Shown here one piece after another: positions 2,329 to 54,262 of a stretch of DNA of 64,000 nt. Both the position numbers and the translations under genes were made by a program. The stretch spans positions 526,342 to 590,341 of the forward strand of contig JADFNM010000001.1 in assembly GCA_022563395.1 (NCBI GenBank), in the 5' to 3' direction. The notes under the pieces are model-generated. The model was not told where the DNA came from and made no database searches. It saw nothing but the letters and a program-made list of their open reading frames with translations. This stretch comes from Patescibacteria group bacterium. Its GTDB lineage: Bacteria; Patescibacteriota; Minisyncoccia; Minisyncoccales; UBA10102. Every line of letters starts with the position of its first letter. The stretch's first letter is position 1.

Positions 2329-2904
2329 ATGATTTCTTACCTTAAAGGAAAAGTCATAGCCCAAGGCCCAGATTATATCATAACAGAGACCGGGGGGGTA
2401 GGGTACAAGGTTTATATAGCAGAGAGCCGCCTTTCTTCTTACCCCGTGGGCAAGGAGACGGAGCTGTACTGTCATTTGCATATGAAACGAGAAGAAACCT
2501 TAGAGCTTTACGGCGTGGAGTCGCCTCAGGCGTTGGAAGTGTTTGAAACTCTAAACAATATTTCTGGTATTGGGCCAAAAGCTGCTTTGAACATTGCTTC
2601 CTTGGGTACCATGGAGCAGTTAAGGGGGGCAGTTGAAAAAGGGGATGCAAGCTATTTTGCCAAGGTTCATGGGATAGGGCAAAAAAGGATACAAAAGATT
2701 ATCCTGGAGCTTACCGGAAAGCTAAAAAGCCTGGACCAACAAAAGAATGGCAGACCAGAAGAAAAAGAGGCAGTAGATGCCTTGGTTGCTTTGGGATTTT
2801 CTCGGAAAAAGGCAAAGGAAGCGCTCTCTGAGATTTCTTCTGAAATCTCCCCTGTGGAAGAACGGGTGAAACAGGCCTTACGCCACATTCGCATATCTCC
2901 TTAA
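2329..2904 (+). CDS. ruvA: Holliday junction DNA helicase RuvA
   Basis: 191 aa with N-terminus MISYLKGKV and HhH motifs ISGIGPKAA and VHGIGQKRIQKI. The last codons and stop (ATA TCT CCT TAA) lie inside an R1 repeat flank. Confidence 0.9.
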   Translation: MISYLKGKVIAQGPDYIITETGGVGYKVYIAESRLSSYPVGKETELYCHLHMKREETLELYGVESPQALEVFETLNNISGIGPKAALNIASLGTMEQLRGAVEKGDASYFAKVHGIGQKRIQKIILELTGKLKSLDQQKNGRPEEKEAVDALVALGFSRKKAKEALSEISSEISPVEERVKQALRHIRISP

Positions 2905-2936
2905 TGAGATTAAGGATGCCTTAACGAGAGTAAGGA
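2893..2936. repeat. R1 repeat copy (two direct half-sites)
   Basis: ATATCTCC-TTAATGAGATTAAGGA-tgcc-TTAACGAGAGTAAGGA. It overlaps the ruvA stop codon. Confidence 0.7.
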
Positions 2937-2945: not shown

Positions 2946-4229
2946 ATGCTGAATATTCTTAGAAAAGTTACCCCAAAGTTTCTCTTGAGCTGGTACCATT
3001 TTGTGTGGGCGTTAGCCGGGGCTTTGGTGTTCCGCTTTCCTGCCCGTGGCATGGTTGTTATTGGTGTGACAGGAACCAATGGGAAGTCTACCACTGTGGA
3101 CATGATTTCCCGTATTTTTAAGGAAGCTGGTTTAAACAGCGCCTCCATGTCTTCGGTTCGTTTTCAACTGAAAGATACAGAGTGGCGAAATACCATGAAA
3201 ATGACCATGCCAGGGCGTTTTGTCATCCAACAGTTCTTGCGCCAGGCAAAGACTAAGGGATGCACTCACGTGGTTTTAGAAGTGACGTCAGAAGGAATGC
3301 TCCAACATCGCCACCGCTTCATACCCTTTCACACCGCCGTCTTTACCAATCTTTCGCCAGAACACATTGAACGTCATGGTTCTTTTGAAAACTACAAGAA
3401 AACAAAAGGCAAGCTCTTTTCTCTTGCACAGGGAGTGCATGTTATCAATATAGATGATAAGCATACCCCATTCTTTCTTAAGTTCCCCGCACAAGAGATA
3501 TATACCTATGGCATATATCCTAAACGAGATTTAGGAATTCCTAAATCTCGTTTGAGCACCACACATATTCAAGGAGAAGATGTGAGAGAAAATGGGGGGC
3601 TGGATTTTAAAGCGCTGGGAACTAAATTTCATTTAGGACTTCTTGGTAGGTTTAATGTGTACAATGCTTTAGCTGCAATTGCAGTGGCACGATCTCAGGG
3701 AATCTCTCTTAAAGTTTGCAAAAATGCCCTAGAGAAAATGCAGGTGGTTCCAGGAAGAATGGAAGAAGTGATTTCTTCCCCCTTTCGGGTGGTGGTAGAT
3801 TACGCCTTTACCCCGGCTGCCTTAGAAAAAGTATACGAAACGCTTAAGCCCGCTTCTGGAAAGTTGCTCTGTGTTTTGGGAGCAGCCGGCGGAGGACGGG
3901 ATGCTTGGAAACGCCCTATCTTGGGTAAGATTGCATTGCAACATTGCAACACAGTCATCGTAACAGATGAGGATCCGTATGAAGAAAACCCAGAGAAAAT
4001 CATGGATGAGGTGATTGCGGGGGCCAAGGGAGAAGCAGAGAAGGTGCAAGATAGAAGGCAAGCTGTTGCAAAGGCATTGAGCATGGCACAAGCGGGAGAC
4101 ACCGTTGTTATTACCGGAAAAGGGTCTGAGGATTCCATGGCAGTTAAGGGAGGAAAGAAAATTCCTTGGGATGATAGAGAAGTGGTTAAAGAGGAGTGGA
4201 CGAAACTCAAAGAACGTGGTACGCTTTGA
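2946..4229 (+). CDS. Mur ligase family protein (MurE-like, short, TM-anchored)
   Basis: 427 aa. N-terminal hydrophobic helix, then P-loop GVTGTNGKSTT and a C-terminal Mur ligase domain (VITGKGSE). It lacks the N-terminal UDP-binding domain of canonical MurE. Confidence 0.75.
   Translation: MLNILRKVTPKFLLSWYHFVWALAGALVFRFPARGMVVIGVTGTNGKSTTVDMISRIFKEAGLNSASMSSVRFQLKDTEWRNTMKMTMPGRFVIQQFLRQAKTKGCTHVVLEVTSEGMLQHRHRFIPFHTAVFTNLSPEHIERHGSFENYKKTKGKLFSLAQGVHVINIDDKHTPFFLKFPAQEIYTYGIYPKRDLGIPKSRLSTTHIQGEDVRENGGLDFKALGTKFHLGLLGRFNVYNALAAIAVARSQGISLKVCKNALEKMQVVPGRMEEVISSPFRVVVDYAFTPAALEKVYETLKPASGKLLCVLGAAGGGRDAWKRPILGKIALQHCNTVIVTDEDPYEENPEKIMDEVIAGAKGEAEKVQDRRQAVAKALSMAQAGDTVVITGKGSEDSMAVKGGKKIPWDDREVVKEEWTKLKERGTL
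3519..3556. repeat. R1 repeat copy, in frame within the Mur ligase gene
   Basis: CCTAAACGAGATTTAGGAATTCCTAAATCTCGTTTGAG is translated as PKRDLGIPKSRLS. The left flank GCATATATCC resembles the common GCATATCTCC flank. Confidence 0.85.
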
Positions 4230-5560: not shown

Positions 5561-5568
5561 TGGAGTAT

Positions 5569-5985
5569 ATGAAAAAGAAAACAACAAGGGCAAAAAAGTC
5601 TACCAAAGTTGCCTCAACGGTGACCCGCCGAAGAGGCGGGAAGGTGGCGCCAAAGAAAAAGAAAAATCTAGGCCCGGGGCGCTCTTCGACCTCTCGCCGC
5701 GGAGGGCTCAAGGCACGCGCCCGCGAGAGACAAGCAGTTGTCTCTCGCCCCATCGGCAGGGTTTCTCATTATTTTGACAACATCAAGGTGGCAGCCATAA
5801 AACTCAAGGCCCCCCTAAAGAAAGGAGACACCATTCGTATTGAAGGGGGGACTACCCTGGTAAAAGTAAAGATTTCTTCAATGCAAAAGAACCACAAGCC
5901 CGTGGCCTCTGCCAAGGCCAGAGACGAGATTGGCATTAAGGTTTCAAAGAAAGTCCGTGAGGGGTACCGCGTCTTTAAGGTGTAA
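5569..5985 (+). CDS. Hypothetical protein, basic N-terminus plus C-terminal small beta-barrel (EF-Tu domain 2-like)
   Basis: 138 aa from the ATG. The C-terminal segment IGRVSHYFDNIKVAAIKLKAPLKKGDTIRIEG...GIKV..VREGYRVFKV resembles translation-factor-like barrel proteins. A GC-rich stretch with an 11-bp perfect hairpin (GCGAGAGACAA/TTGTCTCTCGC) lies in the N-terminal part. Confidence 0.55.
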   Translation: MKKKTTRAKKSTKVASTVTRRRGGKVAPKKKKNLGPGRSSTSRRGGLKARARERQAVVSRPIGRVSHYFDNIKVAAIKLKAPLKKGDTIRIEGGTTLVKVKISSMQKNHKPVASAKARDEIGIKVSKKVREGYRVFKV

Positions 5986-5986
5986 C

Positions 5987-6024
5987 TAAATCTCATTTAG
6001 TTGTTAACAACTAAATGAGATTTA
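5987..6024. repeat. R1 repeat copy (perfect 38-bp palindrome)
   Basis: CTAAATCTCATTTAGTTGT|TAACAACTAAATGAGATTTA(A)G has 19-bp perfect arms around GTTAAC. It lies between the stop at 5985 and the GTG start at 6031. Confidence 0.9.
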
Positions 6025-6030
6025 AGCAAC

Positions 6031-7472: not shown

Positions 7473-7513
7473 CTCCTAAATGAAATTAAAGAATCCTTAA
7501 TTTCATTTAGGAG
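7473..7513. repeat. R1 repeat copy
   Basis: CTCCTAAATGAAATTAAAGAATCCTTAATTTCATTTAGGAG has 17 perfect outer base pairs. It lies between the convergent acyP and pyrD genes. Confidence 0.9.
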
Positions 7514-11496: not shown

Positions 11497-11519
11497 GATT
11501 AAGAAACAATCCAATAGTT

Positions 11520-11563
11520 CTTAAATGAAATTAAGGAATCCTTAATTTCATTTAGGAGATATG
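11520..11563. repeat. R1 repeat copy with GGAGATATG flank
   Basis: CTTAAATGAAATTAAGGAATCCTTAATTTCATTTAGGAGATATG. A partial half-site GATGAGATTAAGA lies at 11492-11504. Confidence 0.9.
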
Positions 11564-15673: not shown

Positions 15674-16636
15674 CTAGAACGCAGGAATAAAAGCTCTTTT
15701 AAGGGACGATGACCTCCGAATTGCTTTTGAGAGCCCGAGATTAGCTATAAGACGCACAAAGGGAAGGACTTGTTTGCTATACCTTTTTGAGCATTTTAAT
15801 GGCGCAAGTCCTGGAAGGCTATATATGCACATGTGGTAAATTTCTCTTCCGTTAATACCCACAGAGTAATAAGGCTTATCGAGGGTGGTTGGCCTGCAGG
15901 TTTCAATACAGCTTATAGGGTCCGCAGAGAGGTCTAAGACCAAAGATTCTTTGTTTAAAAGCACGAGTTGCTCTTTTGTTATCAAGTATTTCCCAACTTC
16001 CTCTGCTTTTCTAAGAGTAGCGTTGACGACCACCTCTGCGTTTTTTAGGTGCTTGCCCATATTTTTCTTAGACGTTTGTTTTTCTCCAAGAACCGTTACT
16101 GAGGCCCCAAACTTACAAGCCGTTTGTATCGCTGGAATTGCCAAGTTGCCATACCCCATGATTACAATATTTTCAGGAGTTTTTTTATAGATTTTTTCAA
16201 AGAGTTTAAAGCCTGTTTTTATGCCTTCTGAACCAGAAATTTCAAAGGCTTCTACGAGCCTTTTCCCATCACTATTCTTAATCTCGTTTAATTCAATGAC
16301 GTTTATCCTTCTTTTTTTGAATTCTGCAACCATTTCTGGATGAGTGTCTCTATGAACCATGCAGATAAGGACACTATTTTTTTTCATGAGGTCTAATTCA
16401 TCAAGGGTAGGGATTCTTATTCTTAAAACAATATCTGAGGAATACACCTCTTTTTTTGAAGATATTATGGCCCCGGCCCTTTTATATTCTTCGTTTGTAA
16501 ACTTAAGTTTCCTGCCAGCATCTTTCTCTACTCTCACGGTATGGCCGTCTTTTACAAGACGTTGAACAAATTGGGGGAGTAAGAGTACTCTTTTTTCTGT
16601 TTTTTCTCTATTTTCTTTTGAAACACCAATAAGCAT
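15674..16636 (-). CDS. AlaDH/PNT-family NAD(P)-dependent dehydrogenase (CEOS-like in size)
   Basis: 320 aa. N-terminus IGVSKENREKTEKRVLLLP and Rossmann motif IVIMGYGNLAIPAIQ. Its stop is 1 nt from the murE start. Very AT-rich. Confidence 0.6.
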   Translation of the reverse strand: MLIGVSKENREKTEKRVLLLPQFVQRLVKDGHTVRVEKDAGRKLKFTNEEYKRAGAIISSKKEVYSSDIVLRIRIPTLDELDLMKKNSVLICMVHRDTHPEMVAEFKKRRINVIELNEIKNSDGKRLVEAFEISGSEGIKTGFKLFEKIYKKTPENIVIMGYGNLAIPAIQTACKFGASVTVLGEKQTSKKNMGKHLKNAEVVVNATLRKAEEVGKYLITKEQLVLLNKESLVLDLSADPISCIETCRPTTLDKPYYSVGINGREIYHMCIYSLPGLAPLKCSKRYSKQVLPFVRLIANLGLSKAIRRSSSLKRAFIPAF

Positions 16637-25476: not shown

Positions 25477-25598
25477 TATAATTTGTCGCGAGTGTCAAAC
25501 TTGTTTTGCACGAGCGACACCTTGGTGTTCTTTTACGGTTGGAACTCCCCTCCAAATTTGCAAAAGCAAATTTGGAGAATAAAAAGGGTCCAAATTAG

Positions 25599-26530: not shown

Positions 26531-28288
26531 ATGATAGTTAAGCATCTAGAAAAACTTGTCCAGAGTGCGCTCAAATCCCTTAAAACCGAAGGTCTCCTTA
26601 ATGAGATTAAGGATTCCTTAATTTCGTTTGAGCATCCGGAGAACCCAGAACACGGGGATTATTCCACCAACGTTGCCCTGGTGCTAGGGAAGCAACTGAA
26701 CCAAAACCCAAGGAAAATTGCAGATTTAATACACTCAAGACTAAACATCAGAGACACAGGGTTTGTAAGCGAAATTAAGGCAGAAGGCCTCGGCTTCATC
26801 AACTTTTTCTTAAAGCAAGAGTACCTTATAGGAGAGTTGCAGGAAGTGATTAAGAAGAAAGAAAAGTATGGTCAAGGCGATGCTCAAAAGAAAAAGGTAA
26901 TGGTTGAGTTTACCGACCCCAACCCCTTCAAGGAGTTTCACATTGGGCATTTGTACAGCAATACCGTTGGGGAGAGTTTGTCTCGACTCCTTGAGGCGCA
27001 GGGAGCTCAGGTAAAGCGGGTGAACTATCAAGGAGATGTGGGGTTGCATGTTGCAAAGGCAGTCTGGGGCATGCAAAGGAATCTTGAAGAACAGCATCTC
27101 TCCCTAAAGGAGTTGGCGAAAAAAGATCTGTCAGTAAGGATGAAGTTTCTCGGGCAGTCATATGCAAAGGGGAACCAAGCGTATGAAACAGGAAACGCAA
27201 AAGAGGATATTGAAAGCTTGAATGCAAAAATCTTCGCCCTAGACAAAGAAATTAAGGAGCTTTATCAGCAAGGCAGAAAATGGAGTCTTGAATATTTTGA
27301 ACAAATCTACAAGCGCTTGGGAACCAAGTTTGACTATTACTACTTTGAAAGCGAAGTAGGAAAGGTAGGGGAAAAGCTTGTAGAAGAAGGAATGAAAAAA
27401 GGAATCTTTGAGAAAAGCCAGGGAGCAGTTATTTTTCCTGGAGAGAAATACGGCCTCCATAGCAGGGTATTCATTACTTCTCAGGGATTGCCAACCTATG
27501 AGGCAAAAGAGCTTGGGTTGGCTCCCACAAAATACAAAGACTTTAAGTATGATCTTTCCCTCATTATTACTGGGAATGAAATCATTGATTATTTTAAAGT
27601 ACTACTGGCCGCATTAAAGGAAATAAATCCAGAGCTTGGGAGAAAAACCAAGCATCTTTCCCACGGCATGGTACGTCTGCCAGAAGGCAAGATGTCGAGC
27701 CGTACCGGAAACGTTGTTACAGGGGAAGAGCTGATTGAAGAGGTAAAAGGCAGAGTACAAAAGATTATGAAGTCCTCGGGAAGCGAGATTCCCGAAAAGG
27801 AGCAGGAAGCTGCAACAGAAAGCATTGCAGTTGGGGCAGTAAAATATTCTTTGTTGAGGATCGGTCTTGGTAGAGATATCACTTTTGATTTTGATAAATC
27901 TCTGAGTTTAGAGGGGGAAAGTGGTCCATATCTTCAATACACGTATGCCAGATGCCGCAGCATCCTCCGCAAGGCAAACTTAAAGAGACTAAGTTATTCA
28001 CACCTTAAAGAAACTAAGTTGCTCCCAGAGGAGATGGCTTTGTTGAGGTTGCTGTATAGATTTCCAGAAATTGTTAGAGATGCAGCAGACAACTTTTCTC
28101 CTAATCTTGTTTGCAGCTTTGTGTTTGATATTGCCCAGGCCTACAACAACTTCTACAACACCCACCGGGTTTTGCAGGCAGAAATTGAGGAGCAAAAGAA
28201 CTTTCGCCTTGTGCTTACTGCAGCCACAGCCCAGATTATTCAGAATTCTCTCAAACTCTTGGGCATTAAAACCCCAGAGCGCATGTAA
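26531..28288 (+). CDS. argS: Arginine--tRNA ligase
   Basis: 585 aa. Motifs HGDYSTNVA, class I motif FHIGHLYS, and GKMSSRTGN, followed by a C-terminal DALR anticodon-binding domain. Confidence 0.95.
   Translation: MIVKHLEKLVQSALKSLKTEGLLNEIKDSLISFEHPENPEHGDYSTNVALVLGKQLNQNPRKIADLIHSRLNIRDTGFVSEIKAEGLGFINFFLKQEYLIGELQEVIKKKEKYGQGDAQKKKVMVEFTDPNPFKEFHIGHLYSNTVGESLSRLLEAQGAQVKRVNYQGDVGLHVAKAVWGMQRNLEEQHLSLKELAKKDLSVRMKFLGQSYAKGNQAYETGNAKEDIESLNAKIFALDKEIKELYQQGRKWSLEYFEQIYKRLGTKFDYYYFESEVGKVGEKLVEEGMKKGIFEKSQGAVIFPGEKYGLHSRVFITSQGLPTYEAKELGLAPTKYKDFKYDLSLIITGNEIIDYFKVLLAALKEINPELGRKTKHLSHGMVRLPEGKMSSRTGNVVTGEELIEEVKGRVQKIMKSSGSEIPEKEQEAATESIAVGAVKYSLLRIGLGRDITFDFDKSLSLEGESGPYLQYTYARCRSILRKANLKRLSYSHLKETKLLPEEMALLRLLYRFPEIVRDAADNFSPNLVCSFVFDIAQAYNNFYNTHRVLQAEIEEQKNFRLVLTAATAQIIQNSLKLLGIKTPERM
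26594..26632. repeat. R1 repeat copy, in frame within argS
   Basis: CTCCTTAATGAGATTAAGGATTCCTTAATTTCGTTTGAG is translated as LLNEIKDSLISFE (ArgS residues 22-34). Confidence 0.85.
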
Positions 28289-28346: not shown

Positions 28347-31226
28347 ATGGAAGTGAATTTTCCCAAGCTGGAAGAGCAAATCCTCAAGCGCTGGAGACGA
28401 GAAAAAACCTTTGTAAAATCCGTGGCAAGGAGAAAAAACTCTCCTCGCTTTGTGTTTTACGAAGGTCCTCCCACCGCCAACGGGAAACCAGGTTTGCACC
28501 ATGTGGAGTCCCGGTCTTTTAAAGACGTTGTGCTCCGCTACAAAACCATGCGGGGATTTTTTGTTCCGAGGCGTGCTGGGTGGGATACCCATGGTCTTCC
28601 TGTGGAGCTGGAGGTGGAAAAACAACTGGGGCTAAAGTCCAAAAAAGACATTGAAAAGTACGGCATAGCAAAGTTTAACGAGGAGTGCAGAAAGTCGGTG
28701 TGGAAATACAAGAAAGAGTGGGAAGAGCTCACAAACAGGGCGGGAGTATGGCTGGATACGGATAATGCGTATATTACCTATGAAACCCCGTACATTGAAA
28801 CCCTGTGGCAGATAATCAAAACCTGGTGGCAAAAAGGTCTCTTGTACAAAGACTACAAGGTAGTGCCTTTTTGCACGAGGTGCGGCACTCCCTTGTCTTC
28901 CCATGAGCTGGCCCAGGGGTACAAAACCGTAAAAGACCTTTCTGTCTATGTGAAGTTCAGGGCAAAAGGAAAGAAGCTTCCGCAAAAGACCTTCTTTCTT
29001 GCTTGGACCACCACGCCCTGGACCTTGCCTGGTAACGTTGCCTTGGCAGTAGGCAGGAATATTTCCTATGTCTTGGTAAAAAAAGACAATGAGCATTATC
29101 TCATGGCTAAAGGTTTGGCAGAGAAAGTGCTTCTAAAGTATGACGTTGTCAAAACGTTTTCTGGCAAAGACCTTGTGGGAATGAAATATGAGCCCCTGTT
29201 TTCTTTTAAAAAGCCAGAACAAGGAAAAAAGGCATGGGAAGTTGTTGCAGCAGACTTTGTTTCTACTAAGGAGGGAACCGGCATTGTGCATACCGCAGTT
29301 GCCTACGGAGTAGAGGACTTTGAGCTGGGGAAAAAAGAAAATCTTGCCATGCTCCACCTTGTGGACGAGCAAGGGAAGTTTGTAAAGGAAGCCACTCCTT
29401 TTAAAGGAAAGTTTGTAAAGGATGCTGACCCCTTGATTATAGCCGACCTGAAAAAGCGAAACCTCTTGTTCAAAGAGGAGTGGTATGAGCACGAGTATCC
29501 TTTTTGTTGGAGATGCTCCACACCATTGCTGTATTATGCAAAGGAAACATGGTTTATAAACATGCAGAAGGTGAAAAAACAACTCTTGGCAAACAACAGG
29601 AAGATAAACTGGATTCCAGGACACTTAAAGGAAGGCAGGATGGGAGAATGGCTAAAGGAGGTGAAGGACTGGGCGTTTTCCCGAGAACGGTACTGGGGAA
29701 CTCCATTGCCCATTTGGGAGTGCACCATGTGCGAAGAAAAAGAGGTTATCGGCTCTGTAAAAGAACTGCTTTCAAAGAAGCTTTTGCAAAACCCCTACAA
29801 AGGAAAGAAAGATATTGACTTGCACCGGCCGTATGTAGATGAAGTGGAGTTTCCTTGCACAAACTGCAAGGGAATCATGAAGAGGGTAAAGGATGTGGTG
29901 GATGTTTGGTATGATTCTGGTGCCATGCCCTTTGCCCAAAACCACTGGATGGGAGAAAAGAAACCAAAAGAGTTTCCTGCAGACTATATTGTAGAAGCCA
30001 TAGACCAGACCAGGGGTTGGTTCTATACCCTGCTTGCAGTATCCACGCTTCTTGGTTTTGGTCCCCCGTTCAAGAATGTTATCTCTTTGGGTCATCTGTT
30101 GGACGCAAAGGGAGAAAAGATGTCTAAGTCCAAGGGTAACGTGGTGAATCCTTGGGATGTGGCAGACAAATACGGCATGGATGCGGTGCGCTGGTACTTC
30201 TTTTCTGTAAATCATCCCTGGGACCCGAAGCTTTTTTCCGAGCGAGACCTTCAACAGACCTTAAGAAAGTTTATCTTAACCCTGTGGAATTCCCTGGCGT
30301 TCTATGAAACGTATAATCCTAAACGAGATTTAGGAGTTCCTAAATCTCGTTTAAGCGAGAATGTGCTGGATCAATGGATCGTGTCTCGCTTAAACACAAC
30401 CACAGCAGACATGACAAGGAAGATGGACGAATACGATATTACAGGAGCTGCCCGCGCCTTGGAATCTTTTGTTATTGAAAATCTTTCTCTGTGGTACATT
30501 CGAAGATCGAGAAGCAGGTTTCAGAACCCCAAAAGCAAGAAGGAATTGCAGGATGCGGTTTCAACCCTTGGATATGTACTTTTTCAGACAAGCTTGCTTT
30601 CTGCCCCGTTTATTCCTTTTTTGAGCGAGGTTGTGTTTGAGAAAAGCAATGGAAAAGGGAGCGTACACTTGCAGGATTGGCCCTTCGACCCAGCTCAGGA
30701 TAAACCAAAAGCCCCAAAACAAGATAAAAAATTAGAACAGGAGATGGAGAAAGTACGGCACATTGCAAGCAAAGGGCTGGCCTTGAGGGCAAAGGCGGGT
30801 CTTCGGGTGCGCCAACCCTTGGCAAAACTCACCATAAAAGAAAAACTTCAAAAAGAATTGCTGCTTTTGCTTCAAGATGAGTTAAACGTAAAAGAAGTGG
30901 TGGTGAGCTCAAAGCTTAAAGGGGATGTGCAGTTGGACACCAAACTTACGCCTCAATTAAGAGAAGAGGGGCTGGTGCGGGAGTTGTTGCGCCATATTCA
31001 GGGCATGAGAAAAGATGCAGGGTATAAGCCGCGCCATCGCGTTCGGTTGCGCTATGCCGGGACAGCCGACGTCAAAAATCTGTTTTCTCGCCACAAAGAA
31101 ACCCTTGTAAAGATTGGAGGCATCACAGAACTTTTGGAAGGAGACCGCCCCAAACAGGTGTTTGATATTGAGAAAACAATAAAGATTGGAGGAAAGAAGC
31201 TGTGGCTCGGCATCCGCAAGATTTGA
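28347..31226 (+). CDS. ileS: Isoleucine--tRNA ligase
   Basis: 959 aa from ATG 28347. The 1051-aa track ORF is an upstream extension that overlaps argS. Motifs PPTANGKPGLHH, an editing domain, and KMSKSKGN. Confidence 0.95.
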   Translation: MEVNFPKLEEQILKRWRREKTFVKSVARRKNSPRFVFYEGPPTANGKPGLHHVESRSFKDVVLRYKTMRGFFVPRRAGWDTHGLPVELEVEKQLGLKSKKDIEKYGIAKFNEECRKSVWKYKKEWEELTNRAGVWLDTDNAYITYETPYIETLWQIIKTWWQKGLLYKDYKVVPFCTRCGTPLSSHELAQGYKTVKDLSVYVKFRAKGKKLPQKTFFLAWTTTPWTLPGNVALAVGRNISYVLVKKDNEHYLMAKGLAEKVLLKYDVVKTFSGKDLVGMKYEPLFSFKKPEQGKKAWEVVAADFVSTKEGTGIVHTAVAYGVEDFELGKKENLAMLHLVDEQGKFVKEATPFKGKFVKDADPLIIADLKKRNLLFKEEWYEHEYPFCWRCSTPLLYYAKETWFINMQKVKKQLLANNRKINWIPGHLKEGRMGEWLKEVKDWAFSRERYWGTPLPIWECTMCEEKEVIGSVKELLSKKLLQNPYKGKKDIDLHRPYVDEVEFPCTNCKGIMKRVKDVVDVWYDSGAMPFAQNHWMGEKKPKEFPADYIVEAIDQTRGWFYTLLAVSTLLGFGPPFKNVISLGHLLDAKGEKMSKSKGNVVNPWDVADKYGMDAVRWYFFSVNHPWDPKLFSERDLQQTLRKFILTLWNSLAFYETYNPKRDLGVPKSRLSENVLDQWIVSRLNTTTADMTRKMDEYDITGAARALESFVIENLSLWYIRRSRSRFQNPKSKKELQDAVSTLGYVLFQTSLLSAPFIPFLSEVVFEKSNGKGSVHLQDWPFDPAQDKPKAPKQDKKLEQEMEKVRHIASKGLALRAKAGLRVRQPLAKLTIKEKLQKELLLLLQDELNVKEVVVSSKLKGDVQLDTKLTPQLREEGLVRELLRHIQGMRKDAGYKPRHRVRLRYAGTADVKNLFSRHKETLVKIGGITELLEGDRPKQVFDIEKTIKIGGKKLWLGIRKI
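30318..30355. repeat. R1 repeat copy, in frame within ileS
   Basis: CCTAAACGAGATTTAGGAGTTCCTAAATCTCGTTTAAG is translated as PKRDLGVPKSRLS. Confidence 0.85.
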
Positions 31227-37949: not shown

Positions 37950-38019
37950 TTGATATTGCCTAAACGTGTTGATATTGCCTAAACGAGATTTAAGCATGAG
38001 TGCTTAAATCTCGTTTAGG
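37950..38019. repeat. R1 repeat copy with a tandemly duplicated left edge
   Basis: TTGATATTGCCTAAACG occurs twice, 19 bp apart (37950-37966 and 37969-37985). It is followed by the palindrome CCTAAACGAGATTTAAGCA-tgag-TGCTTAAATCTCGTTTAGG (37978-38019). Confidence 0.85.
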
Positions 38020-40510: not shown

Positions 40511-40554
40511 GCATATCTCCTAAATGAAATTAAAGAATCCTTAATTTCATTAAG
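40511..40554. repeat. R1 repeat copy with GCATATCTCC flank
   Basis: GCATATCTCCTAAATGAAATTAAAGAATCCTTAATTTCATTAAG. It is preceded by the small GC hairpin GCCCGC-TTCA-GCGGGC (40487-40502). Confidence 0.9.
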
Positions 40555-40684: not shown

Positions 40685-40706
40685 ATTCACCTCTTTGAAA
40701 ACAAAC

Positions 40707-41096: not shown

Positions 41097-42035
41097 ATGC
41101 TAATAGATACCCACGGACACGTCAACTTTGCCGCTTTCAAGAATGACGCAAAAGAGGTTCTGCACCGTACCTTGAAAGGAGATACCTGGGTTATAATGCC
41201 AGGCACCCAGTATGCTACCTCAAAGAAAGCAGTAGAAATGGCAGAGCAGTATAGAGAAGGAGTGTATGCCGCAATTGGTCTGCACCCTATTCATCTTTCA
41301 GAAAAGCGCAAGGTTGATGTATTGGAAGTGCAGTCAGAAAACACCAAGGAGGAAGAATGGATGACCTTTGAAACACAAGAGGAGGAGTTTTTGTATGAAA
41401 AGTACAAAGAATTGGGACAAAGCAAAAAGGTGGCGGCAGTCGGTGAGTGCGGCCTGGATTATTACTATGAACCAAAGAGCAAAGAAAGAAGAGAAGCTCA
41501 ACGGCGTAAACAAAAGGCAGCGCTTGCCTTGCAACTGAAGTTGGCAGACGAGCTAAACTTGCCGATTATTTTCCATTGCCGCAAGGCACATGATGATTTG
41601 ATTGAATTTCTAACAAACTACAAACTACAAACTAAAAATTTGAGAGGTGTCGTGCACTGCTACACTGGAGACTTAAAACAGGCAGAGCAGTTCTACAATA
41701 TTGGCCTCTCTTTTGGGTTTAACGGCCTTATTTTCAAAGATGTTCCTGCGCTTCCCAATCCAAAGGAGATTATTGGAGCTTTACCCTTGGAGCGAATTGT
41801 TCTGGAAACTGATTCTCCCTACTTACTGCCGCCCTTGCCCGCCGACCCGGCCTCCGTAGCCACTTCGGCGAAGGGGGCAGCTTTAGCGAAGGCGGGACAG
41901 GCAGGACGCAACGAACCCCTGTTTGTAAAATATGTAGCAGAGGAGATAGCTCGTATTAAAGGTATCTTAGTAGACGAAGTTTCCTCTGCGACAACCAAAA
42001 ACGCCAAAGCCTTATTTCGCTTAAATGAGATTTAG
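41097..42035 (+). CDS. tatD: TatD family metal-dependent deoxyribonuclease/hydrolase
   Basis: 312 aa from ATG 41097 (the track ORF from 40863 is an upstream extension). Motifs IDTHGH, GECGLDYY, HCR, VHCYTG and ETDSPYL. It contains an F2 insertion, and its stop codon lies in an R1 copy. Confidence 0.9.
   Translation: MLIDTHGHVNFAAFKNDAKEVLHRTLKGDTWVIMPGTQYATSKKAVEMAEQYREGVYAAIGLHPIHLSEKRKVDVLEVQSENTKEEEWMTFETQEEEFLYEKYKELGQSKKVAAVGECGLDYYYEPKSKERREAQRRKQKAALALQLKLADELNLPIIFHCRKAHDDLIEFLTNYKLQTKNLRGVVHCYTGDLKQAEQFYNIGLSFGFNGLIFKDVPALPNPKEIIGALPLERIVLETDSPYLLPPLPADPASVATSAKGAALAKAGQAGRNEPLFVKYVAEEIARIKGILVDEVSSATTKNAKALFRLNEI
41832..41906. repeat. F2 GC-rich repeat copy, in frame within tatD (75 nt)
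   Basis: Encodes PLPADPASVATSAKGAALAKAGQAG between the conserved SPYLLP and RNEP. It contains GCGAAGGCGGG (41886-41896) and AGCTTTAGCGAAGG (41879-41892). Confidence 0.7.
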
Positions 42036-42061
42036 GTGTGGATAACTAAATCTCGTTTAAG
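42020..42061. repeat. R1 repeat copy (tatD / mutY-like convergent junction)
   Basis: CTTAAATGAGATTTAGG-tgtggataa-CTAAATCTCGTTTAAG. The tatD stop TAG (42033-42035) lies inside the left arm. Confidence 0.85.
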
Positions 42062-42066
42062 CGAGA

Positions 42067-42876
42067 TTAGAGGGAATAGAAGTTTCTTTTCTTTTTTATG
42101 AGGCCATCTTTTTCTAAAGAGGCAAGAATCTTTTCTGGCACATAGGGGCTCTTCGCTTTTTTGAGCAGTCGCTGGATTTTGCTTGCAGTGGCAGTTTGAT
42201 TTGGCTGGTCTAAGAGAAAGCGCATTACTTTGGTGCGAAACGAGCGGAGAGAACCTTCAAATCTGCTTTGCTTTGCATAGTGCTTGCTTTGCTTGTTTAT
42301 CTTTTTGTCTTTGAGAACCGTTGCCCCGTAGTCAAAGAGGGCATAGTGCCATTGTCGAGGATTCTTTTTCCACACTGCCTTTTCTGCAATATGCAGAATC
42401 TCTTTGTCTGACACGTCTTTCTTTTTTGGAAAGAAAAAGTGCAGGTATACTCTTCTGATGTTTGTATCTAAGAATGCGTCTTTGTTTTGAAAAGCAAAGC
42501 AGGCGATAGCCCCAGCAGTGTAAGGACCAATGCCAGGGAGTTTTTGTAAGTCCTTAGGGTTTTCAGGAAACTTTTCTTCATGACTCTTTATTATCTCCTT
42601 TGCAGCTTTCTTTAAAGAAAGGGCACGTTTCCAGTATCCAAGGCCTCGCCAAACTTTAAGGAGTTTTCCATCTGGAGTTTTTGCAAGAGATTGCAAGGTT
42701 GGGAACTCTTTGAGAAACTCTTTGTATTTGGGAAGGACTCTTGCAACCTGGGTCTGTTGAAGCATGACCTCAGACACCAATATCTTGTAGGGGTTGTCGG
42801 TTTCTCTCCAGGGCATATCCCTTTGGTTCTTTTTGCGGGAATCTAAGATGAGTTTTTGGAACTTGGGAATGGTCAT
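42067..42876 (-). CDS. HhH-GPD DNA glycosylase, MutY/Nth-like, without a recognisable Fe-S cysteine cluster
   Basis: 269 aa. Motifs PWRET.NPYKILVSEVMLQQTQV, HhH-GPD LPGIGPYTAGAI, and catalytic-region DTNIRRV. No C-x6-C-x2-C-x5-C motif is seen. Confidence 0.65.
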   Translation of the reverse strand: MTIPKFQKLILDSRKKNQRDMPWRETDNPYKILVSEVMLQQTQVARVLPKYKEFLKEFPTLQSLAKTPDGKLLKVWRGLGYWKRALSLKKAAKEIIKSHEEKFPENPKDLQKLPGIGPYTAGAIACFAFQNKDAFLDTNIRRVYLHFFFPKKKDVSDKEILHIAEKAVWKKNPRQWHYALFDYGATVLKDKKINKQSKHYAKQSRFEGSLRSFRTKVMRFLLDQPNQTATASKIQRLLKKAKSPYVPEKILASLEKDGLIKKKRNFYSL

Positions 42877-42932: not shown

Positions 42933-45344
42933 ATGACGCGCTACGAGCATGAGAAAATAGAGGCAAAGTGGCAGAAACGCTGGGAGAAAAAGAAGGCCTG
43001 GGAGGTGGATTTGGACAAGGCAAAAAAGCCCTACTATAACTTAATGATGTTCCCCTATCCTTCAGCAGAGGGGCTGCATGTAGGGAATGTCTATGCCTTT
43101 ACCATCTCTGACATTCATGGAAGGTTCCGCAGAATGCAGGGATATGATGTGTTTGAGCCCATGGGGTTTGATGCCTTTGGCATTCATTCAGAAAACTTTG
43201 CCATTAAACAGGGGACGCACCCAAAAGAGCAGACTGCAAAGAACATTACGCACTTCACAAAACAGCTCAAGCAATTGGGAGCTCTTTTTGATTGGCAAAG
43301 AGCAGTTATTACCAGTGACCCCGAATACTACAAATGGACCCAGTGGCTGTTTGTGCAACTCTACAAAGCAGGTCTGGCATATAAGGGGAAAGCCCCTGTT
43401 GACTGGTGTCCTTCTTGCAAGACCGTGCTGGCAGATGAGCAGGTTATAGAAGGGCAATGCGAACGATGTGACACTCAGGTTGTGCAAAAGGAATTGGAGC
43501 AGTGGTTTTTTCGCATTACCAAGTATGCGGACCGCCTATTAAAAAACTTGGAGTGGATTGACTGGACCGAAAAGACCAAACTCGCGCAAAGAAACTGGAT
43601 TGGAAAGGCAGAAGGCACAACCATAAAATTCAAAGTTCCCAATTCCAAGCATGAGGTTGAAGTCTTTACGACGCGTGCCGATACGCTTTACGGCGCAACG
43701 TTTATTGTTTTAGCACCAGAACACCCCATGGTAGCTTCCCTCCAAAACTCAAAAGAGGTTCAAAAGTATGTAGAGAAATCAAAGCAGAGAACCGAACTGG
43801 AAAGAAAAGCCGAGGAAAAAGAAAAAACAGGCGTTTTCTCGGGCCTGTACGCGATAAACCCGCTCAACAAGGAAAAAATTCCTGTTTGGATTGCTGATTA
43901 TGTGTTAATGGGTTATGGAACAGGTGCCTTGTTTGGAGATGCTCACGACGAGCGTGATGTCGAATTTGCTAGAAAGTATAACATTCCACTCAAACCCACC
44001 GTAATCACAGGAGATAAAGAGAAAGACCGGAAGATCTTAAGCCTTGAAGAATGTTTTACAGGTTATGGCACCTTAGTGGACTCTGGTCCATTTACAGGCT
44101 TGACCTCAAAGGAAGCAATAGCAAAAGTGATGGAGTGGCTTATCAGGAAAGGACAGGGCGGGCGGAAAGTAACGTACCACCTCAGAGATTGGCTTATCTC
44201 TCGTCAGCGCTACTGGGGGTCTCCCATCCCTATTATCTATTGCGCAAAATGCGGCACGGTTCCGGTTCCAGAAAAAGACCTTCCGGTAAAGTTACCCGAG
44301 GTAAAGGATTTTCGACCTTCTGGCACGGGTAAGTCGCCCTTGGCTTCCGTTGCGAGCTTTGTGAAAACCAAGTGCCCTCAATGTAAAGGGCCAGCTGAGA
44401 GGGAAACAGATGTTTCAGACACGTTTTTAGATTCAGCCTGGTATTTTTTCCGCTATCCCTCAACCGAGTTTAAAACAAAACCTTTTGATAAGGTAAGGGT
44501 AAAGAAGTGGCTTCCTGTGAATATGTACATTGGAGGGCACGAGCACGCTGTCTTGCACCTCTTGTACACCAGATTCATTACTATGGCCCTAAAAGACATG
44601 GGACACATTTCTTTTGAGGAACCCTTTGAGAAATTCCGCGCCCACGGTTTAATCACCAAAGGCGGGGTAAAGATGTCCAAATCCAGAGGGAACGTGGTGA
44701 ACCCAGACGAGTACTTTGTAAAGTACGGCGCAGACACGGTGCGTACCTATTTAATGTTTCTGGGTCCTCTGGCAGATGGGGGAGGTTGGTCAGACAGGGG
44801 AATCGTTGGCATCTCCCGGTTTTTCAACCGTCTCTGGGTATTTGTGCCTAAATCTCGTTTAGGAGATCCTAAACGAGATTTAGGAAATGAGGCCTTGCGG
44901 CATAGAACAATCAAGAAAGTTACTGAAGACCTAGAGAATCTGCGATATAACACCGCAATTGCAGCTTGCATGGAATATTTTAATGCCCTTCAAAAATCCA
45001 GCAATCCAACAAAAGAAGAGACAGATACTTTACTCATTCTTCTTTCGCCTTTTGCCCCTCATTTAACGCAAGAACTCTGGGAAAAACTTGGCAACAAGGG
45101 AAGTGTGCATGACCAACCTTGGCCAAAGCATGACCCAAAGGCATTGCAGGAAAAAGTTGTTCGGCTTGTGGTACAGGTGAATGGAAGAGTCAGAGAAGTT
45201 CTTTTAGTTTCTCCCGGCATTTCAGAAAAGGAGGCTGTTGCTCGGGCGCTGCAGCAAGAAAAGGTAAAGAAATGGTTCCCCACGGGAAAGCCAAAGAACG
45301 TGGTGTTTGTGAAAGGAAGATTACTAAATCTTGTATCGTATTAA
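42933..45344 (+). CDS. leuS: Leucine--tRNA ligase
   Basis: 803 aa. Motifs MFPYPSAEGLHVGN, a CP1 editing domain, and VKMSKSRGN. Confidence 0.95.
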   Translation: MTRYEHEKIEAKWQKRWEKKKAWEVDLDKAKKPYYNLMMFPYPSAEGLHVGNVYAFTISDIHGRFRRMQGYDVFEPMGFDAFGIHSENFAIKQGTHPKEQTAKNITHFTKQLKQLGALFDWQRAVITSDPEYYKWTQWLFVQLYKAGLAYKGKAPVDWCPSCKTVLADEQVIEGQCERCDTQVVQKELEQWFFRITKYADRLLKNLEWIDWTEKTKLAQRNWIGKAEGTTIKFKVPNSKHEVEVFTTRADTLYGATFIVLAPEHPMVASLQNSKEVQKYVEKSKQRTELERKAEEKEKTGVFSGLYAINPLNKEKIPVWIADYVLMGYGTGALFGDAHDERDVEFARKYNIPLKPTVITGDKEKDRKILSLEECFTGYGTLVDSGPFTGLTSKEAIAKVMEWLIRKGQGGRKVTYHLRDWLISRQRYWGSPIPIIYCAKCGTVPVPEKDLPVKLPEVKDFRPSGTGKSPLASVASFVKTKCPQCKGPAERETDVSDTFLDSAWYFFRYPSTEFKTKPFDKVRVKKWLPVNMYIGGHEHAVLHLLYTRFITMALKDMGHISFEEPFEKFRAHGLITKGGVKMSKSRGNVVNPDEYFVKYGADTVRTYLMFLGPLADGGGWSDRGIVGISRFFNRLWVFVPKSRLGDPKRDLGNEALRHRTIKKVTEDLENLRYNTAIAACMEYFNALQKSSNPTKEETDTLLILLSPFAPHLTQELWEKLGNKGSVHDQPWPKHDPKALQEKVVRLVVQVNGRVREVLLVSPGISEKEAVARALQQEKVKKWFPTGKPKNVVFVKGRLLNLVSY
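44847..44885. repeat. R1 repeat copy, in frame within leuS (perfect 17-bp arms)
   Basis: CCTAAATCTCGTTTAGG-agat-CCTAAACGAGATTTAGG is translated as PKSRLGDPKRDLG. Confidence 0.9.
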
Positions 45345-45345: not shown

Positions 45346-45380
45346 CTTAATGAAATTAAGGAATCCTTAATTTCATTAAG
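45346..45380. repeat. R1 repeat copy (perfect 35-bp palindrome), flank supplies the glmS SD
   Basis: CTTAATGAAATTAAGGAATCCTTAATTTCATTAAG is followed by GAGATATTCAT-ATG. The sequence AAGGAG ends 8 nt before ATG 45392. Confidence 0.9.
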
Positions 45381-45391
45381 GAGATATTCAT

Positions 45392-50994: not shown

Positions 50995-51043
50995 ATCGCA
51001 TATCTCCTAAACAAAATTAAGGAAAACCTTAATTTTGTTCAGG
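50995..51043. repeat. R1 repeat copy (variant) with GCATATCTCC flank
   Basis: ATCGCATATCTCCTAAACAAAATTAAGGAAAACCTTAATTTTGTTCAGG. Confidence 0.85.
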
Positions 51044-51052
51044 AACTACTGT

Positions 51053-54179: not shown

Positions 54180-54183
54180 TTCT

Positions 54184-54262
54184 TTAATCTCGTTTAGTTA
54201 TCCACGCCCCTTCGGGTCTGAAGCCCTTCAGGGTCTGAACGACTTAATGAGATTAAGTTTAG
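54184..54262. repeat. Composite: R1 arms separated by a GC-rich F2-like insert
   Basis: The left arm TTAATCTCGTTTAG (54184-54197) and right arm CTTAATGAGATTAAG (54243-54257) are split. The insert is GCCCCTTCGGGTCTGAAGCCCTTCAGGGTCTGAACGA, itself an imperfect direct duplication. Confidence 0.7.

What the first reader, a model, noticed from the sequence alone, without database searches (positions are those of the whole stretch)
30318..30355. R1 palindrome translated in frame inside IleS (PKRDLGVPKSRLS)
The copy sits at in-frame offset 1971 from ATG 28347, just upstream of the conserved LDQWIVSRL helix that starts the anticodon-binding region. It has the same arm order, phase and 21-nt arm period as the Mur ligase copy. 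The left flank GTATAATCC resembles the GCATATCTCC flank of the intergenic copies.
Basis: seen in the sequence. Interest (0 to 1): 0.7.

Follow-up and report, generated by a model that had tools for sequence, protein, structure and literature searches.

The report
Palindromic repeat translated inside IleS
A 38-base palindrome from a repeat family scattered through this tiny candidate-phyla bacterium's genome sits in frame in a flexible surface loop of isoleucyl-tRNA synthetase, and relatives carry their own genome's version of the palindrome at the same spot, so it is kept as DNA/RNA rather than as a useful peptide.

Summary
Confirmed. Window 30318-30355 is a near-perfect palindrome (16+16 nt perfect arms, 2-nt centre), in frame in IleS as residues 658-670, PKRDLGVPKSRLS. 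It belongs to a real dispersed family: 13 doublets in 64 kb, four of them inside genes (IleS, LeuS, ArgS, a Mur ligase).

The IleS and Mur copies share 37/39 nt and 11/12 codons (P about 6e-6 given the shared residues), so the identity is at nucleotide level. The shared phase is forced, because the other two frames contain TAA/TAG.

Each element is two inverted 17-nt mini-palindromes (CCTAAA-N5-TTTAGG), a miniature REPIN-like layout.

The main new result concerns relatives (Parcubacteria near Wildermuthbacteria). They carry a palindrome at the same IleS codons but with their own genome's sequence. The changes are compensatory in the DNA and non-synonymous in the protein. The same holds at LeuS, Mur ligase and TsaD sites and at two intergenic sites. 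One relative shows a decayed remnant; others have short linkers.

An AlphaFold model puts the peptide in a low-confidence coil between two helices.

Best reading: a tolerated in-frame copy of a REP/REPIN- or RPE-like element, maintained at nucleic-acid level. The mobilising machinery is unknown. It is a new member of a known kind, of moderate interest.

The parts
28347..31226 (+). IleS gene (type-2 isoleucyl-tRNA synthetase, 959 aa), host of the element
   Evidence: Pfam tRNA-synt_1, Anticodon_1 and DUF5915. Best PDB matches are 8c8w and 1ile.
30318..30355 (+). The element under study: two inverted 17-nt units, CCTAAACGAGATTTAGG (30318-30334) and CCTAAATCTCGTTTAAG (30339-30355), with spacer AGTT. 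It encodes PKRDLGVPKSRLS (aa 658-670).
   Evidence: RNA hairpin of -32.7 kcal/mol over 30290-30385, z = -4.8.
30356..30363 (+). Right flank, seen as AAGCGAGA spanning 30353-30360. It is shared with the TatD-3' copy (42057-42064), so family identity may extend past the palindrome.
   Evidence: Flank comparison, (weak; a single comparison).
3519..3556 (+). In-frame copy in a Mur ligase (ORF 2946-4229), encoding PKRDLGIPKSRLS. It shares 37/39 nt with the IleS copy.
   Evidence: The orthologous site in L087 carries another dialect.
44845..44886 (+). In-frame copy in LeuS (ORF 42933-45344, aa 639-651, PKSRLGDPKRDLG). The unit order is reversed. It lies in the linker just before Anticodon_1 (657-766), at the same relative position as in IleS.
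   Evidence: (I7).
26598..26630 (+). Subfamily-b copy in frame in the ArgS N-terminal domain (LNEIKDSLISF). This segment is 11 codons (33 nt) longer in window, L001 and L005 than in L002, L003, L008 and L009, where the 6 native codons also differ.
16276..16290 (-). Single unit (half copy, 2 mismatches) inside the alanine dehydrogenase/PNT-family ORF (15674-16636).
2901..2936 (.). Intergenic copy between RuvA and the Mur ligase. The two units are in direct rather than inverted order. The first unit overlaps the RuvA stop codon.
5985..6026 (.). Intergenic copy (19+19 perfect, reversed unit order) between ORF 5560-5985 and a permease gene.
   Evidence: (I5).
7473..7513 (.). Intergenic subfamily-b copy between convergent genes (permease on +, dihydroorotate dehydrogenase on -).
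   Evidence: (I6).
11514..11562 (.). Intergenic subfamily-b copy with extended arms (...TAAATGAAATTAAGGA / TCCTTAATTTCATTTAGGAGATAT).
   Evidence: (I2).
37978..38019 (.). Intergenic copy between the AI-2E transporter and TP_methylase genes. L003 holds its own dialect in the same spacer. The left end plus flank, TTGATATTGCCTAAACG, is duplicated at 37950-37966 and 37969-37985.
   Evidence: (I4).
40520..40554 (.). Intergenic subfamily-b copy downstream of MetG.
   Evidence: (I12).
42011..42070 (.). Copy at the 3' end of TatD, between convergent genes. The TatD stop codon lies inside the element. L074 has its own dialect at the same site.
   Evidence: (I1).
45346..45380 (.). Intergenic subfamily-b copy between LeuS and GlmS. 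The right end, TTAAGGAG, lies 7 nt before the GlmS ATG and looks like a Shine-Dalgarno sequence.
   Evidence: (I9).
51005..51044 (.). Degenerate intergenic copy upstream of the Sua5/YrdC gene.
54182..54258 (.). Two half copies separated by 47 nt (split or long-loop copy) between SHMT and FolD.

Best explanation
The IleS segment is an intragenic copy of a small, dispersed palindromic repeat. The repeat consists of two inverted 17-nt mini-palindromes, CCTAAA-N5-TTTAGG, separated by 4 nt. This is a miniature REPIN-like doublet that behaves like Rickettsia RPEs when it lands in genes.

The copy survives in IleS for three reasons. (i) It is in the only stop-free frame. (ii) Its 21-nt unit period keeps both units in that frame. 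(iii) It lies in a variable, exposed coil between the last helix of the catalytic body and the first helix of the anticodon-binding domain. It is therefore translated as a neutral 13-residue loop.

The element is old at this site. What is maintained is the nucleic-acid palindrome, not the peptide. In related genomes the same codons carry each genome's own variant of the repeat, with both arms changed together.

Shown: the anatomy, family membership, translation-compatible configuration, orthologous persistence, compensatory change, and loop location.

Inferred: that copies spread and are homogenised by a structure- or sequence-specific DNA process. Candidates are transposition by a Y1/RAYT-type enzyme, gene conversion from a master copy, or hairpin template-switch repair. 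It is also inferred that the intergenic copies act as 3'-end or terminator-like hairpins.
For: Family and anatomy:
- There are 22 arm matches against 0.54 expected.
- The window holds 13 doublets in 64 kb, about 1 per 4.9 kb.

Nucleotide-level identity:
- The IleS and Mur copies share 37/39 nt and 11/12 identical codons, P about 6e-6.
- Only one frame is open.
- In the metagenome sample, 15/15 intragenic copies have spacers of 4 or 7 nt that keep both units in frame, against 9/30 noncoding copies (Fisher 4e-6).

Orthologous persistence with genome-specific sequence at the IleS site:
- window: CGAGA/TCTCG
- L008: CAAGA/TCTTG plus AAA>AAG
- L005: CCCGG/CCGGG
- L003: CTTAG/CTAAG
The peptides differ accordingly (KRDLG, KQDLG, KPGLG, KLSLG).
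- At the LeuS site, L073 shows a four-way coordinated AAA>AGG / TTT>CCT change, and L074 another dialect.
- At the Mur site, L087 carries another dialect.
- At the TsaD site, L108, L145 and L152 carry three dialects.
- Intergenic spacers in L003 and L074 carry the dialect of their own genome.

Covariation: 96.3% of cells are paired, 9 of 17 pairs show double changes, and 0 of 500 shuffles reach this.

Gain, loss and decay:
- The ArgS segment is 11 codons longer where the element is present and shorter where it is absent.
- L075 LeuS has no element.
- L009 and L201 IleS carry decayed remnants.

Loop location:
- The AF2 model shows helix 632-656, coil 657-672, helix 673-694, with pLDDT about 60 in the coil.
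- The solved type-2 IleRS 8c8w has an unrelated linker of the same length there.

Intergenic copies lie only in same-direction or convergent spacers, never in the roughly 6 divergent spacers (gene map).
Against: - No transposase or other candidate trans-acting gene lies in the 64-kb window, and the rest of the genome could not be read.
- No target-site duplication or clean empty site was defined. In IleS and LeuS the element-bearing linker is about as long as element-free linkers of other bacteria or close relatives. Simple insertion is therefore not demonstrated at this site.
- Genome-specific variants at orthologous sites fit a trans-acting recognition system (uptake or binding) as well as a selfish element.
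- Some spacers that hold an element in one genome hold an unrelated hairpin in another (L005 and L074). Recurrent insertion at favoured sites cannot be separated from in-situ homogenisation.
- The covariation set was partly ascertained by a pattern requiring CCTAA/TTAGG, and the decayed L009 copy was left out.
Confidence: 0.7

Rival explanations
1. Recognition-signal model. The 17-nt unit is a binding or uptake signal for a sequence-specific protein, for example a DNA-uptake sequence for the competence machinery or a nucleoid/segregation protein. Lineage-specific 'dialects' arise by co-evolution with that protein. Copies in genes are simply signals that happen to be tolerated.
For: - The core is conserved (CCTAA...TTAGG) while the centre is lineage-specific.
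- Orthologous coding and intergenic sites switch dialect together within a genome, as described for uptake-sequence dialects (own knowledge of Neisseriaceae and Pasteurellaceae).
- Density is about one unit per 2 kb.
- The 21-bp unit period equals two helical turns.
- One direct-order doublet and a few single units exist.
- Host genes include repair and translation genes.
Against: - More than 80% of units occur as fixed-spacing inverted doublets rather than singletons.
- The centres of the two units are strictly reverse-complementary (54 perfect cases). A per-unit binding signal explains this only if the whole 17-mer is read.
- No competence or candidate binding gene was examined, and there is no experimental support.
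Confidence: 0.13
2. Functional mRNA hairpin. The 18-bp stem inside the IleS (and LeuS) message is selected to pause ribosomes at the boundary before the anticodon-binding domain, or to serve as an RNase III or attenuation site controlling synthetase levels.
For: - The predicted hairpin is very stable (-32.7 kcal/mol, z = -4.8).
- It sits at the same domain boundary in two paralogous synthetases.
- Palindromy is kept by compensatory, non-synonymous changes.
Against: - The same element occurs in intergenic DNA and at non-boundary positions of unrelated proteins: ArgS residues 22-33, mid Mur ligase, two sites in UvrC, TsaD and a P-type ATPase.
- Close relatives lack it in LeuS (L075) or let it decay in IleS (L009, L201).
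- Almost no G-U pairs are seen (3 of 187 cells), which fits DNA-level complementarity better than RNA-only selection.
Confidence: 0.1
3. Protein-level motif. The tandem P-K-x-x-L-G heptads are a selected peptide feature, for example a basic tRNA-contacting loop.
For: The loop precedes the anticodon-binding domain and carries K/R residues in this genome.
Against: - Only P-K and L-G, which are encoded by the conserved CCTAAR/TTAGG, are kept. The variable residues go from R/D/S/R to P/G/P/G or L/S/L/S.
- The motif is absent or decayed in relatives.
- Codon identity with an unrelated protein is far above the level the peptide would require.
- The region is a low-confidence coil.
Confidence: 0.03
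4. Chance palindrome in a fast-evolving linker, or an assembly artefact.
For: The linker is hypervariable in length and sequence.
Against: - There are 22 arm matches against 0.54 expected.
- Identity to the Mur copy is 37/39 nt.
- Distant IleS genes show no palindrome at this site. About 50 control loci were checked; most controls fall within background, though a few have low control counts.
- The LeuS, TatD-3' and LeuS-GlmS copies are identical in five independent assemblies of the same species.
Confidence: 0.01

Closest known systems
REP / REPIN elements (repetitive extragenic palindromes; REP doublets forming hairpins, mobilised by RAYT Y1 transposases)
   Same: - A short palindromic unit is repeated many times.
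- Units are paired in inverted orientation with a short spacer, forming a hairpin.
- Compensatory changes occur across the hairpin.
- Copies lie downstream of genes, in same-direction and convergent spacers.
- Element ends supply stop codons.
- Occasional intragenic copies occur, sometimes at the same site in related species (PMC3116915, PMC3733652).
- Lineage-specific master sequences exist (bioRxiv 10.1101/2021.07.10.451892).
   Different: - The element is much smaller: a 38-42 nt doublet, against spacings of 71 and 110 bp given for REP doublets in P. fluorescens (PMC3116915).
- The terminal tag is TTAG/CTAG, not GTAG or CGTC.
- About a quarter to a third of the copies here are inside genes, whereas REPINs are almost exclusively extragenic.
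- No cognate RAYT was identified.
- The host is a Patescibacteria (CPR) genome. I found no paper describing such repeats in that group.
Rickettsia palindromic elements (RPE)
   Same: Palindromic repeats inserted in frame into many unrelated, functional housekeeping genes, at positions compatible with the fold, in a reduced genome (PMC10969869, PMC3733652).
   Different: - RPEs are about 150 bp, encode a conserved peptide far longer than 13 residues, and carry a CGTC tag.
- Here the element is 38 nt, encodes 13 residues, and the peptide is not conserved between species.
- No sequence similarity was tested or is expected.
DNA uptake sequences (DUS/USS) arranged as inverted pairs
   Same: Dense short motif. 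Inverted pairs downstream of genes. Copies tolerated in coding regions. Lineage-specific dialects (own knowledge).
   Different: Here the fixed-spacing doublet, not the single motif, is the predominant form. No link to competence has been shown.

Membership tests
REP/REPIN | Short (about 20-40 bp) palindromic unit present in many copies per genome | tested here: met
   22 arm matches against 0.54 expected; 13 doublets in 64 kb.
REP/REPIN | Units organised as inverted doublets with a spacer that fold into a hairpin, with compensatory changes | tested here: met
   10-12 of the roughly 14 loci are inverted doublets. 96.3% of cells are paired, and 9 of 17 pairs show double changes.
REP/REPIN | Almost exclusively extragenic, downstream of genes in unidirectional or convergent spacers | tested here: inconclusive
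   Intergenic copies fit: none lies in a divergent spacer. However, 4 of 13 doublets are intragenic.
REP/REPIN | GTAG (or CGTC) tetranucleotide at one end of the unit | tested here: not met
   Units end in TTAGG here, CTAGG in L073, and GTAGG only in the decayed L201 remnant.
REP/REPIN | Cognate single-copy RAYT (Y1 transposase) in the same genome, flanked by the repeats | not testable with these tools
   None is present in the window, and the rest of the 671-kb contig could not be read. A Y1_Tnp ORF (PF01797, 43.7 bits) occurs in metagenome loci L148 and L177 that also carry family copies, but it is flanked by a different hairpin.
Rickettsia palindromic elements (RPE) | In-frame insertion into unrelated functional ORFs | tested here: met
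   IleS, LeuS, ArgS and a Mur ligase here. TsaD, UvrC (two copies), MurD-like ligases and a P-type ATPase in metagenome loci.
Rickettsia palindromic elements (RPE) | About 100-150 bp element encoding a conserved peptide; CGTC tag | tested here: not met
   The element is 38 nt and encodes 13 aa. The peptide varies with the dialect, and there is no CGTC end.
Rickettsia palindromic elements (RPE) | Insertion at surface positions compatible with the fold | tested here: met
   Coil 657-672 between helices, pLDDT about 60. The linker is variable in orthologues.
MITE | Terminal inverted repeats plus target-site duplication | tested here: inconclusive
   The whole element is an inverted repeat. No TSD could be defined from the ArgS filled/empty comparison. 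A 17-nt left-end duplication is present at 37950-37985.
DNA uptake sequence | Short motif, mostly as single copies in either orientation at about 1 per kb | tested here: not met
   Only 2-3 single units against 10-12 fixed-spacing doublets.
DNA uptake sequence | Lineage-specific dialects with a shared core | tested here: met
   The CCTAA/TTAGG core is kept and the centres differ by genome.
DNA uptake sequence | Preferential uptake by the competence machinery | not testable with these tools
   This requires experiment.
Rfam RNA families | Match to a curated covariance model | tested here: not met
   Only tmRNA and two tRNAs reach gathering scores in the window.

The most novel reading that the evidence does not exclude
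Parcubacteria carry a previously undescribed, phylum-wide REPIN-like system (CCTAA-N7-TTAGG doublets). Its copies are vertically inherited at fixed positions, including inside essential genes such as IleS, LeuS, the Mur ligases, TsaD and UvrC. They are actively rewritten genome-wide to a lineage-specific master sequence. This would imply a dedicated trans-acting machinery in roughly 0.7-Mb genomes: a Y1/RAYT-type enzyme, or an uptake- or recombination-driven molecular drive. The palindromes may be host-useful signals (uptake, termination) rather than junk.
Probability: 0.3. Interest if true: 0.75.

Novelty: new member of a known kind. Interest (0 to 1): 0.5.

Why it matters
Small palindromic repeats that colonise coding sequence are known from Rickettsia (RPE) and, more rarely, from REP families. 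The paper library I searched returned no description of them for candidate-phyla-radiation bacteria.

Here they occupy essential genes of a genome that is otherwise extremely streamlined. Orthologous copies change both arms together, at the cost of amino-acid changes. That is a clean natural example of selection or drive acting on DNA/RNA structure inside a protein-coding gene.

Practical consequences:
- P-K-x-x-L-G-x-P-K-x-x-L-G peptides in CPR proteins should be read as repeat-derived loops, not as motifs.
- The hairpins can break assemblies and gene calls.
- The dialects could serve as lineage markers.
- If a cognate enzyme or uptake function exists, it would be a new handle on genome dynamics in uncultivated bacteria.

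Tried and rejected
1. A word-indexed protein search with a concatenated repeat peptide, meant to census host proteins, returned 7 candidates and 1 irrelevant hit. This wasted the last homologue search.

2. The search for related loci with the single IleS protein on genome contigs chose query-specific peptides. It returned only three close relatives plus about 60 distant IleS genes. The distant ones were still useful as negative controls.

3. My first full-length MAFFT run timed out and my first palindrome finder had a bug. Both were redone.

4. The generic metagenome pattern also picked up unrelated tandem TTAGG-type repeats. About two thirds of the 162 matches were filtered out by requiring complementary centres.

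5. Within-species comparison (L196-L200, 99-100% identical) showed no polymorphism in the elements, so it gave no information on mobility.

6. A regex screen of 1.95 Mb of fetched loci for HUH...Y..NP transposases found Y1_Tnp ORFs only in L122, L148 and L177. Their flanking hairpins are not the CCTAA family, so no RAYT link was established.

7. Considered and rejected:
- CRISPR, integron attC, dif/parS-type sites: wrong copy number and context.
- Intein, intron or translational bypass: every intragenic copy obeys frame and stop constraints, so the copies are translated.
- A known RNA family: no Rfam hit.
Full report
**1. Observation**

Window 30318-30355 reads CCTAAACGAGATTTAGGAgtTCCTAAATCTCGTTTAAG. 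The arms 30320-30335 and 30338-30353 are perfectly complementary with 2 nt between them.

The ORF starting at ATG 28347 is a 959-aa IleS, with Pfam tRNA-synt_1, Anticodon_1 (675-825) and DUF5915. Position 30318 is codon 658, so the element is translated as PKRDLGVPKSRLS, ending four residues before LDQWIVSRL.

**2. The repeat family**

The 16-nt arm occurs 22 times with up to 3 mismatches, against 0.54 expected. Reading each hit with its flanks gives 13 doublets in 64 kb, about one per 4.9 kb, plus a few half copies.

There are two subfamilies:
- CCTAAACGAGATTTAGG
- CCTAAATGAAATTAAGG

Each 17-nt unit is itself a mini-palindrome (CCTAAA-N5-TTTAGG). A doublet is a unit, a short spacer, and the reverse complement of the unit.

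Both unit orders occur. IleS and Mur have CGAGA...TCTCG. LeuS and 5985-6026 have TCTCG...CGAGA. One locus (2901-2936) has the units in direct order.

Intergenic copies often extend to ...ATATCTCC / GGAGATAT.... They lie in same-direction or convergent spacers and never in the roughly six divergent spacers (gene map). Two of them overlap the upstream stop codon (RuvA, TatD).

Four doublets are inside genes:
- IleS
- LeuS (44845-44886, aa 639-651), immediately before its Anticodon_1 domain, which is the same relative position as in IleS
- ArgS (26598-26630)
- a Mur ligase (3519-3556)

No Rfam family matches the elements. No transposase is encoded in the window.

**3. Nucleotide versus peptide constraint**

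The IleS and Mur copies share 37 of 39 nt. At the 12 positions with the same amino acid they use the same codon 11 times, including rare CGA, CGT and TTA. The probability is about 6e-6 given the window's codon usage. The identity is therefore a shared DNA origin, not convergence on a peptide.

The common phase carries no information. Frames 2 and 3 of the element contain TAG and TAA on either strand.

In a metagenome sample, all 15 distinct intragenic doublets had spacers of 4 or 7 nt, which keep both units in the open frame. Only 9 of 30 noncoding doublets did (Fisher 4e-6). This is a survival filter. It shows that intragenic copies are read through by ribosomes.

The TAT codon of Tyr656 is invariant in 40 orthologues, including several whose linkers show no palindromic peptide.

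**4. Orthologues of IleS**

The organism is a Patescibacteria/Parcubacteria bacterium near Candidatus Wildermuthbacteria.

In an alignment of 120 IleS homologues:
- The closest (86-89% identity) have near-identical peptides.
- More distant ones have other 'palindromic' peptides at the same place: PKLSLGAPKLSLG, PKPGLGVPKPGLG, PRLGLGAPRPSLG and others. Twelve sequences, counting the query, match the signature.
- Others have short, unrelated linkers.

DNA fetched for relatives shows the cause:

| Locus | Sequence at the IleS site |
|---|---|
| L008 (86%) | CCTAAGCAAGACTTAGGCGCGCCTAAGTCTTGCTTAAG |
| L005 (77%) | CCTAAACCCGGTTTAGGtgttCCTAAACCGGGTTTAGG |
| L003 (77%) | a perfect 24+24 palindrome around CCTAAGCTTAGCTTAGG |
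| L001, L002 | slightly decayed |
| L009 (79%) | linker of the same length with no palindrome (SIKQKPGSLKVPVSKNV) |
| L201 (76%) | 14/17 remnant with CCTAC...GTAGG ends |

The differences are paired across the arms and are non-synonymous (R>Q with R>C; RD/SR > PG/PG > LS/LS).

About fifty distant IleS genes serve as controls. They show no palindrome at the site, and most fall within background.

**5. The same behaviour elsewhere**

LeuS:
- L073 (86%) has TCCTAGGTCTCGCCTAGGAgtTCCTAGGCGAGACCTAGGA. This is a four-way coordinated change (AAA>AGG and TTT>CCT in both units) relative to the window.
- L074 has CCTAAACTCGG.../...CCGAGTTTAGG.
- L075 (82%) has no element, in a linker of the same length.

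Mur ligase: L087 (69% identical) has its own dialect at the orthologous site.

ArgS: where the element is present (window, L001, L005), this segment is 11 codons (33 nt) longer than in L002, L003, L008 and L009, and the flanking native codons also differ. This distribution does not follow IleS similarity.

Intergenic sites:
- The AI-2E/TP_methylase spacer carries the window dialect here and the L003 dialect in L003.
- The TatD 3' end carries the window dialect here and the L074 dialect in L074.
- L005 and L074 have unrelated sequence in the first spacer.

Within L003 and L074 the coding and intergenic copies share one genome-specific core.

**6. Breadth**

A scan of metagenome contigs was run with CCTAA-N7-TTAGG-N(0-8)-CCTAA-N7-TTAGG. 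This pattern does not require complementary centres.

Of 162 matches, 54 have perfectly complementary centres, in many dialects (GCGAAGC, GCTAAGC, ACCAGGT, ACTCGGT, GCTCGGC, GTCTCGC and others). The rest are unrelated tandem repeats.

Spanning ORFs identified by Pfam:
- TsaD: the same site in three genomes with three dialects, and a decayed copy at that site in a fourth
- UvrC: two copies in one gene
- two Mur ligases
- a heavy-metal P-type ATPase

**7. What is constrained**

The test set was 11 elements from the IleS, LeuS and Mur sites. The long-hairpin model pairs 96.3% of cells. Nine of 17 pairs show changes on both sides (34 cells). No shuffle of 500 reaches this, and slid registers collapse.

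The central five positions covary only under the long hairpin. The outer stems also fit the two mini-hairpins.

Only 3 of 187 cells are G-U. This fits DNA-level complementarity, or recent copying, better than RNA-only selection.

As RNA, 30290-30385 folds at -32.7 kcal/mol (z = -4.8).

Caveats: some sequences were found with a CCTAA/TTAGG pattern, the decayed L009 copy was left out, and arm-to-arm template switching can restore palindromes without selection.

**8. Protein context**

The IleS is a type-2 enzyme; the best PDB matches are 8c8w and 1ile. The solved homologue has an unrelated linker of the same length at this point.

An AlphaFold2 model built on 40 sequences (mean pLDDT 84) shows helix 632-656, coil 657-672 and helix 673-694. 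The 661-670 block has pLDDT 60, against 78 and 87 on either side. The element-encoded residues are therefore a flexible connecting loop.

**9. Explanation**

The simplest account is a REP/REPIN-like palindromic repeat. Its copies persist wherever they are harmless: downstream of genes, and in frame in exposed linkers of proteins. The nucleic-acid palindrome, not the peptide, is propagated or corrected.

Genome-specific variants at orthologous sites require one of three things:
- homogenisation from a master copy
- repeated replacement at favoured sites
- co-evolution with a trans-acting recogniser

I could not separate these.

Partial extra units next to the element hint at repeated events at the same place. 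Examples are PKLL before PKLSLG in L003, KLG after the doublet in L005, and the 17-nt duplication at 37950-37985.

Rivals are a recognition or uptake signal, a functional mRNA hairpin, a peptide motif, and chance. They are weighed in the rival section.

**10. Comparison with known systems**

The element shares several features with REPINs: the inverted-doublet hairpin, compensatory change, and a downstream-of-gene location (PMC3116915, PMC3733652). It shares in-frame residence in housekeeping genes with RPEs (PMC10969869).

It fails the GTAG/CGTC tag test and the RPE size test. Its RAYT dependence could not be tested. A Y1_Tnp ORF does occur in metagenome loci that also carry family copies (L148, L177), but it is flanked by a different hairpin.

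Literature searches found no description of such elements in candidate-phyla-radiation bacteria.

**11. Verdict**

It is a new member of a known kind (intragenic palindromic repeats). Its most interesting aspect is persistence at orthologous sites with genome-specific rewriting, across several essential genes.

Noticed in passing
window 31347-31985: A 212-aa ORF with no Pfam match and 55.9% G+C (window 45.5%) sits between IleS and RecO. In L002, RecO follows IleS directly. In L003 and L201, other small genes (DUF5674 and others) occupy this spot. It looks like a variable islet of foreign composition.
   Followed up: partly
IleS homologues P0009-P0120; alignment A1 columns after query residue about 480: Most Parcubacteria IleS relatives are 1130-1240 aa and carry a histidine-phosphatase domain (PF00300) inside the synthetase. 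The window's IleS and its closest relatives lack it.
   Followed up: no
LeuS homologues P0142, P0146, P0158, P0176, P0191: Some Wildermuthbacteria LeuS proteins are fused to NUDIX (PF00293) or alpha/beta-hydrolase domains.
   Followed up: no
L148 733-1419 and L177 5478-6164: An IS200-like Y1 transposase ORF (PF01797, 43.7 bits; HFHLL...YIHRNP). It is flanked, and interrupted once, by a different hairpin repeat (TGTTAGACACCGAGTGTTTAACA). It lies about 5 kb from a UvrC gene that carries two in-frame CCTAAGCGAAGCTTAGG doublets.
   Followed up: partly
window 37950-37985: The 17-nt string TTGATATTGCCTAAACG (flank plus left end of the element) occurs twice in tandem just before the 37978-38019 doublet. 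This may be a footprint of a repeated insertion or of slippage.
   Followed up: no
window 54182-54258: Two complementary half units are separated by a 47-nt G+C-rich insert (GTTATCCACGCCCCTTCGGGTCTGAAGCCCTTCAGGGTCTGAACGAC) between SHMT and FolD. This is a split or long-loop copy.
   Followed up: no
window 25596-25951 (-), 26043-26489 (-): A tmRNA gene (Rfam 107 bits) lies next to SmpB. tRNA genes are at 5446-5517 (+) and 57874-57957 (-).
   Followed up: no
window 16765-17919: An ORF combines a HisG (ATP phosphoribosyltransferase) domain with an AsnC/Lrp-type HTH and ligand-binding domain. This is an unusual fusion.
   Followed up: no
window 45362-45391; L074 12494-12566; L075 2790-2861: The right end of subfamily-b elements (TTAAGGAG) lies 7 nt upstream of the GlmS start and looks like its Shine-Dalgarno sequence. 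The left arm would sequester it in the hairpin. L074 and L075 have a TTGACA promoter-like box and an imperfect version of the same palindrome in this spacer.
   Followed up: partly
window 10299-10324, 21163-21189, 40662-40785: Other perfect or near-perfect palindromes, unrelated to the family, in intergenic spacers. They are probably ordinary terminators.
   Followed up: no
IleS homologues P0036, P0044, P0054, P0069, P0096 and others: More distant IleS relatives have other repetitive-looking peptides at the same linker (KIQNPKSKI..., YKIQNTKYKIQN, YYKTFRKL..., NPPVGGP). Other repeat or hairpin sequences may also occupy this site. Their DNA was not examined.
   Followed up: no
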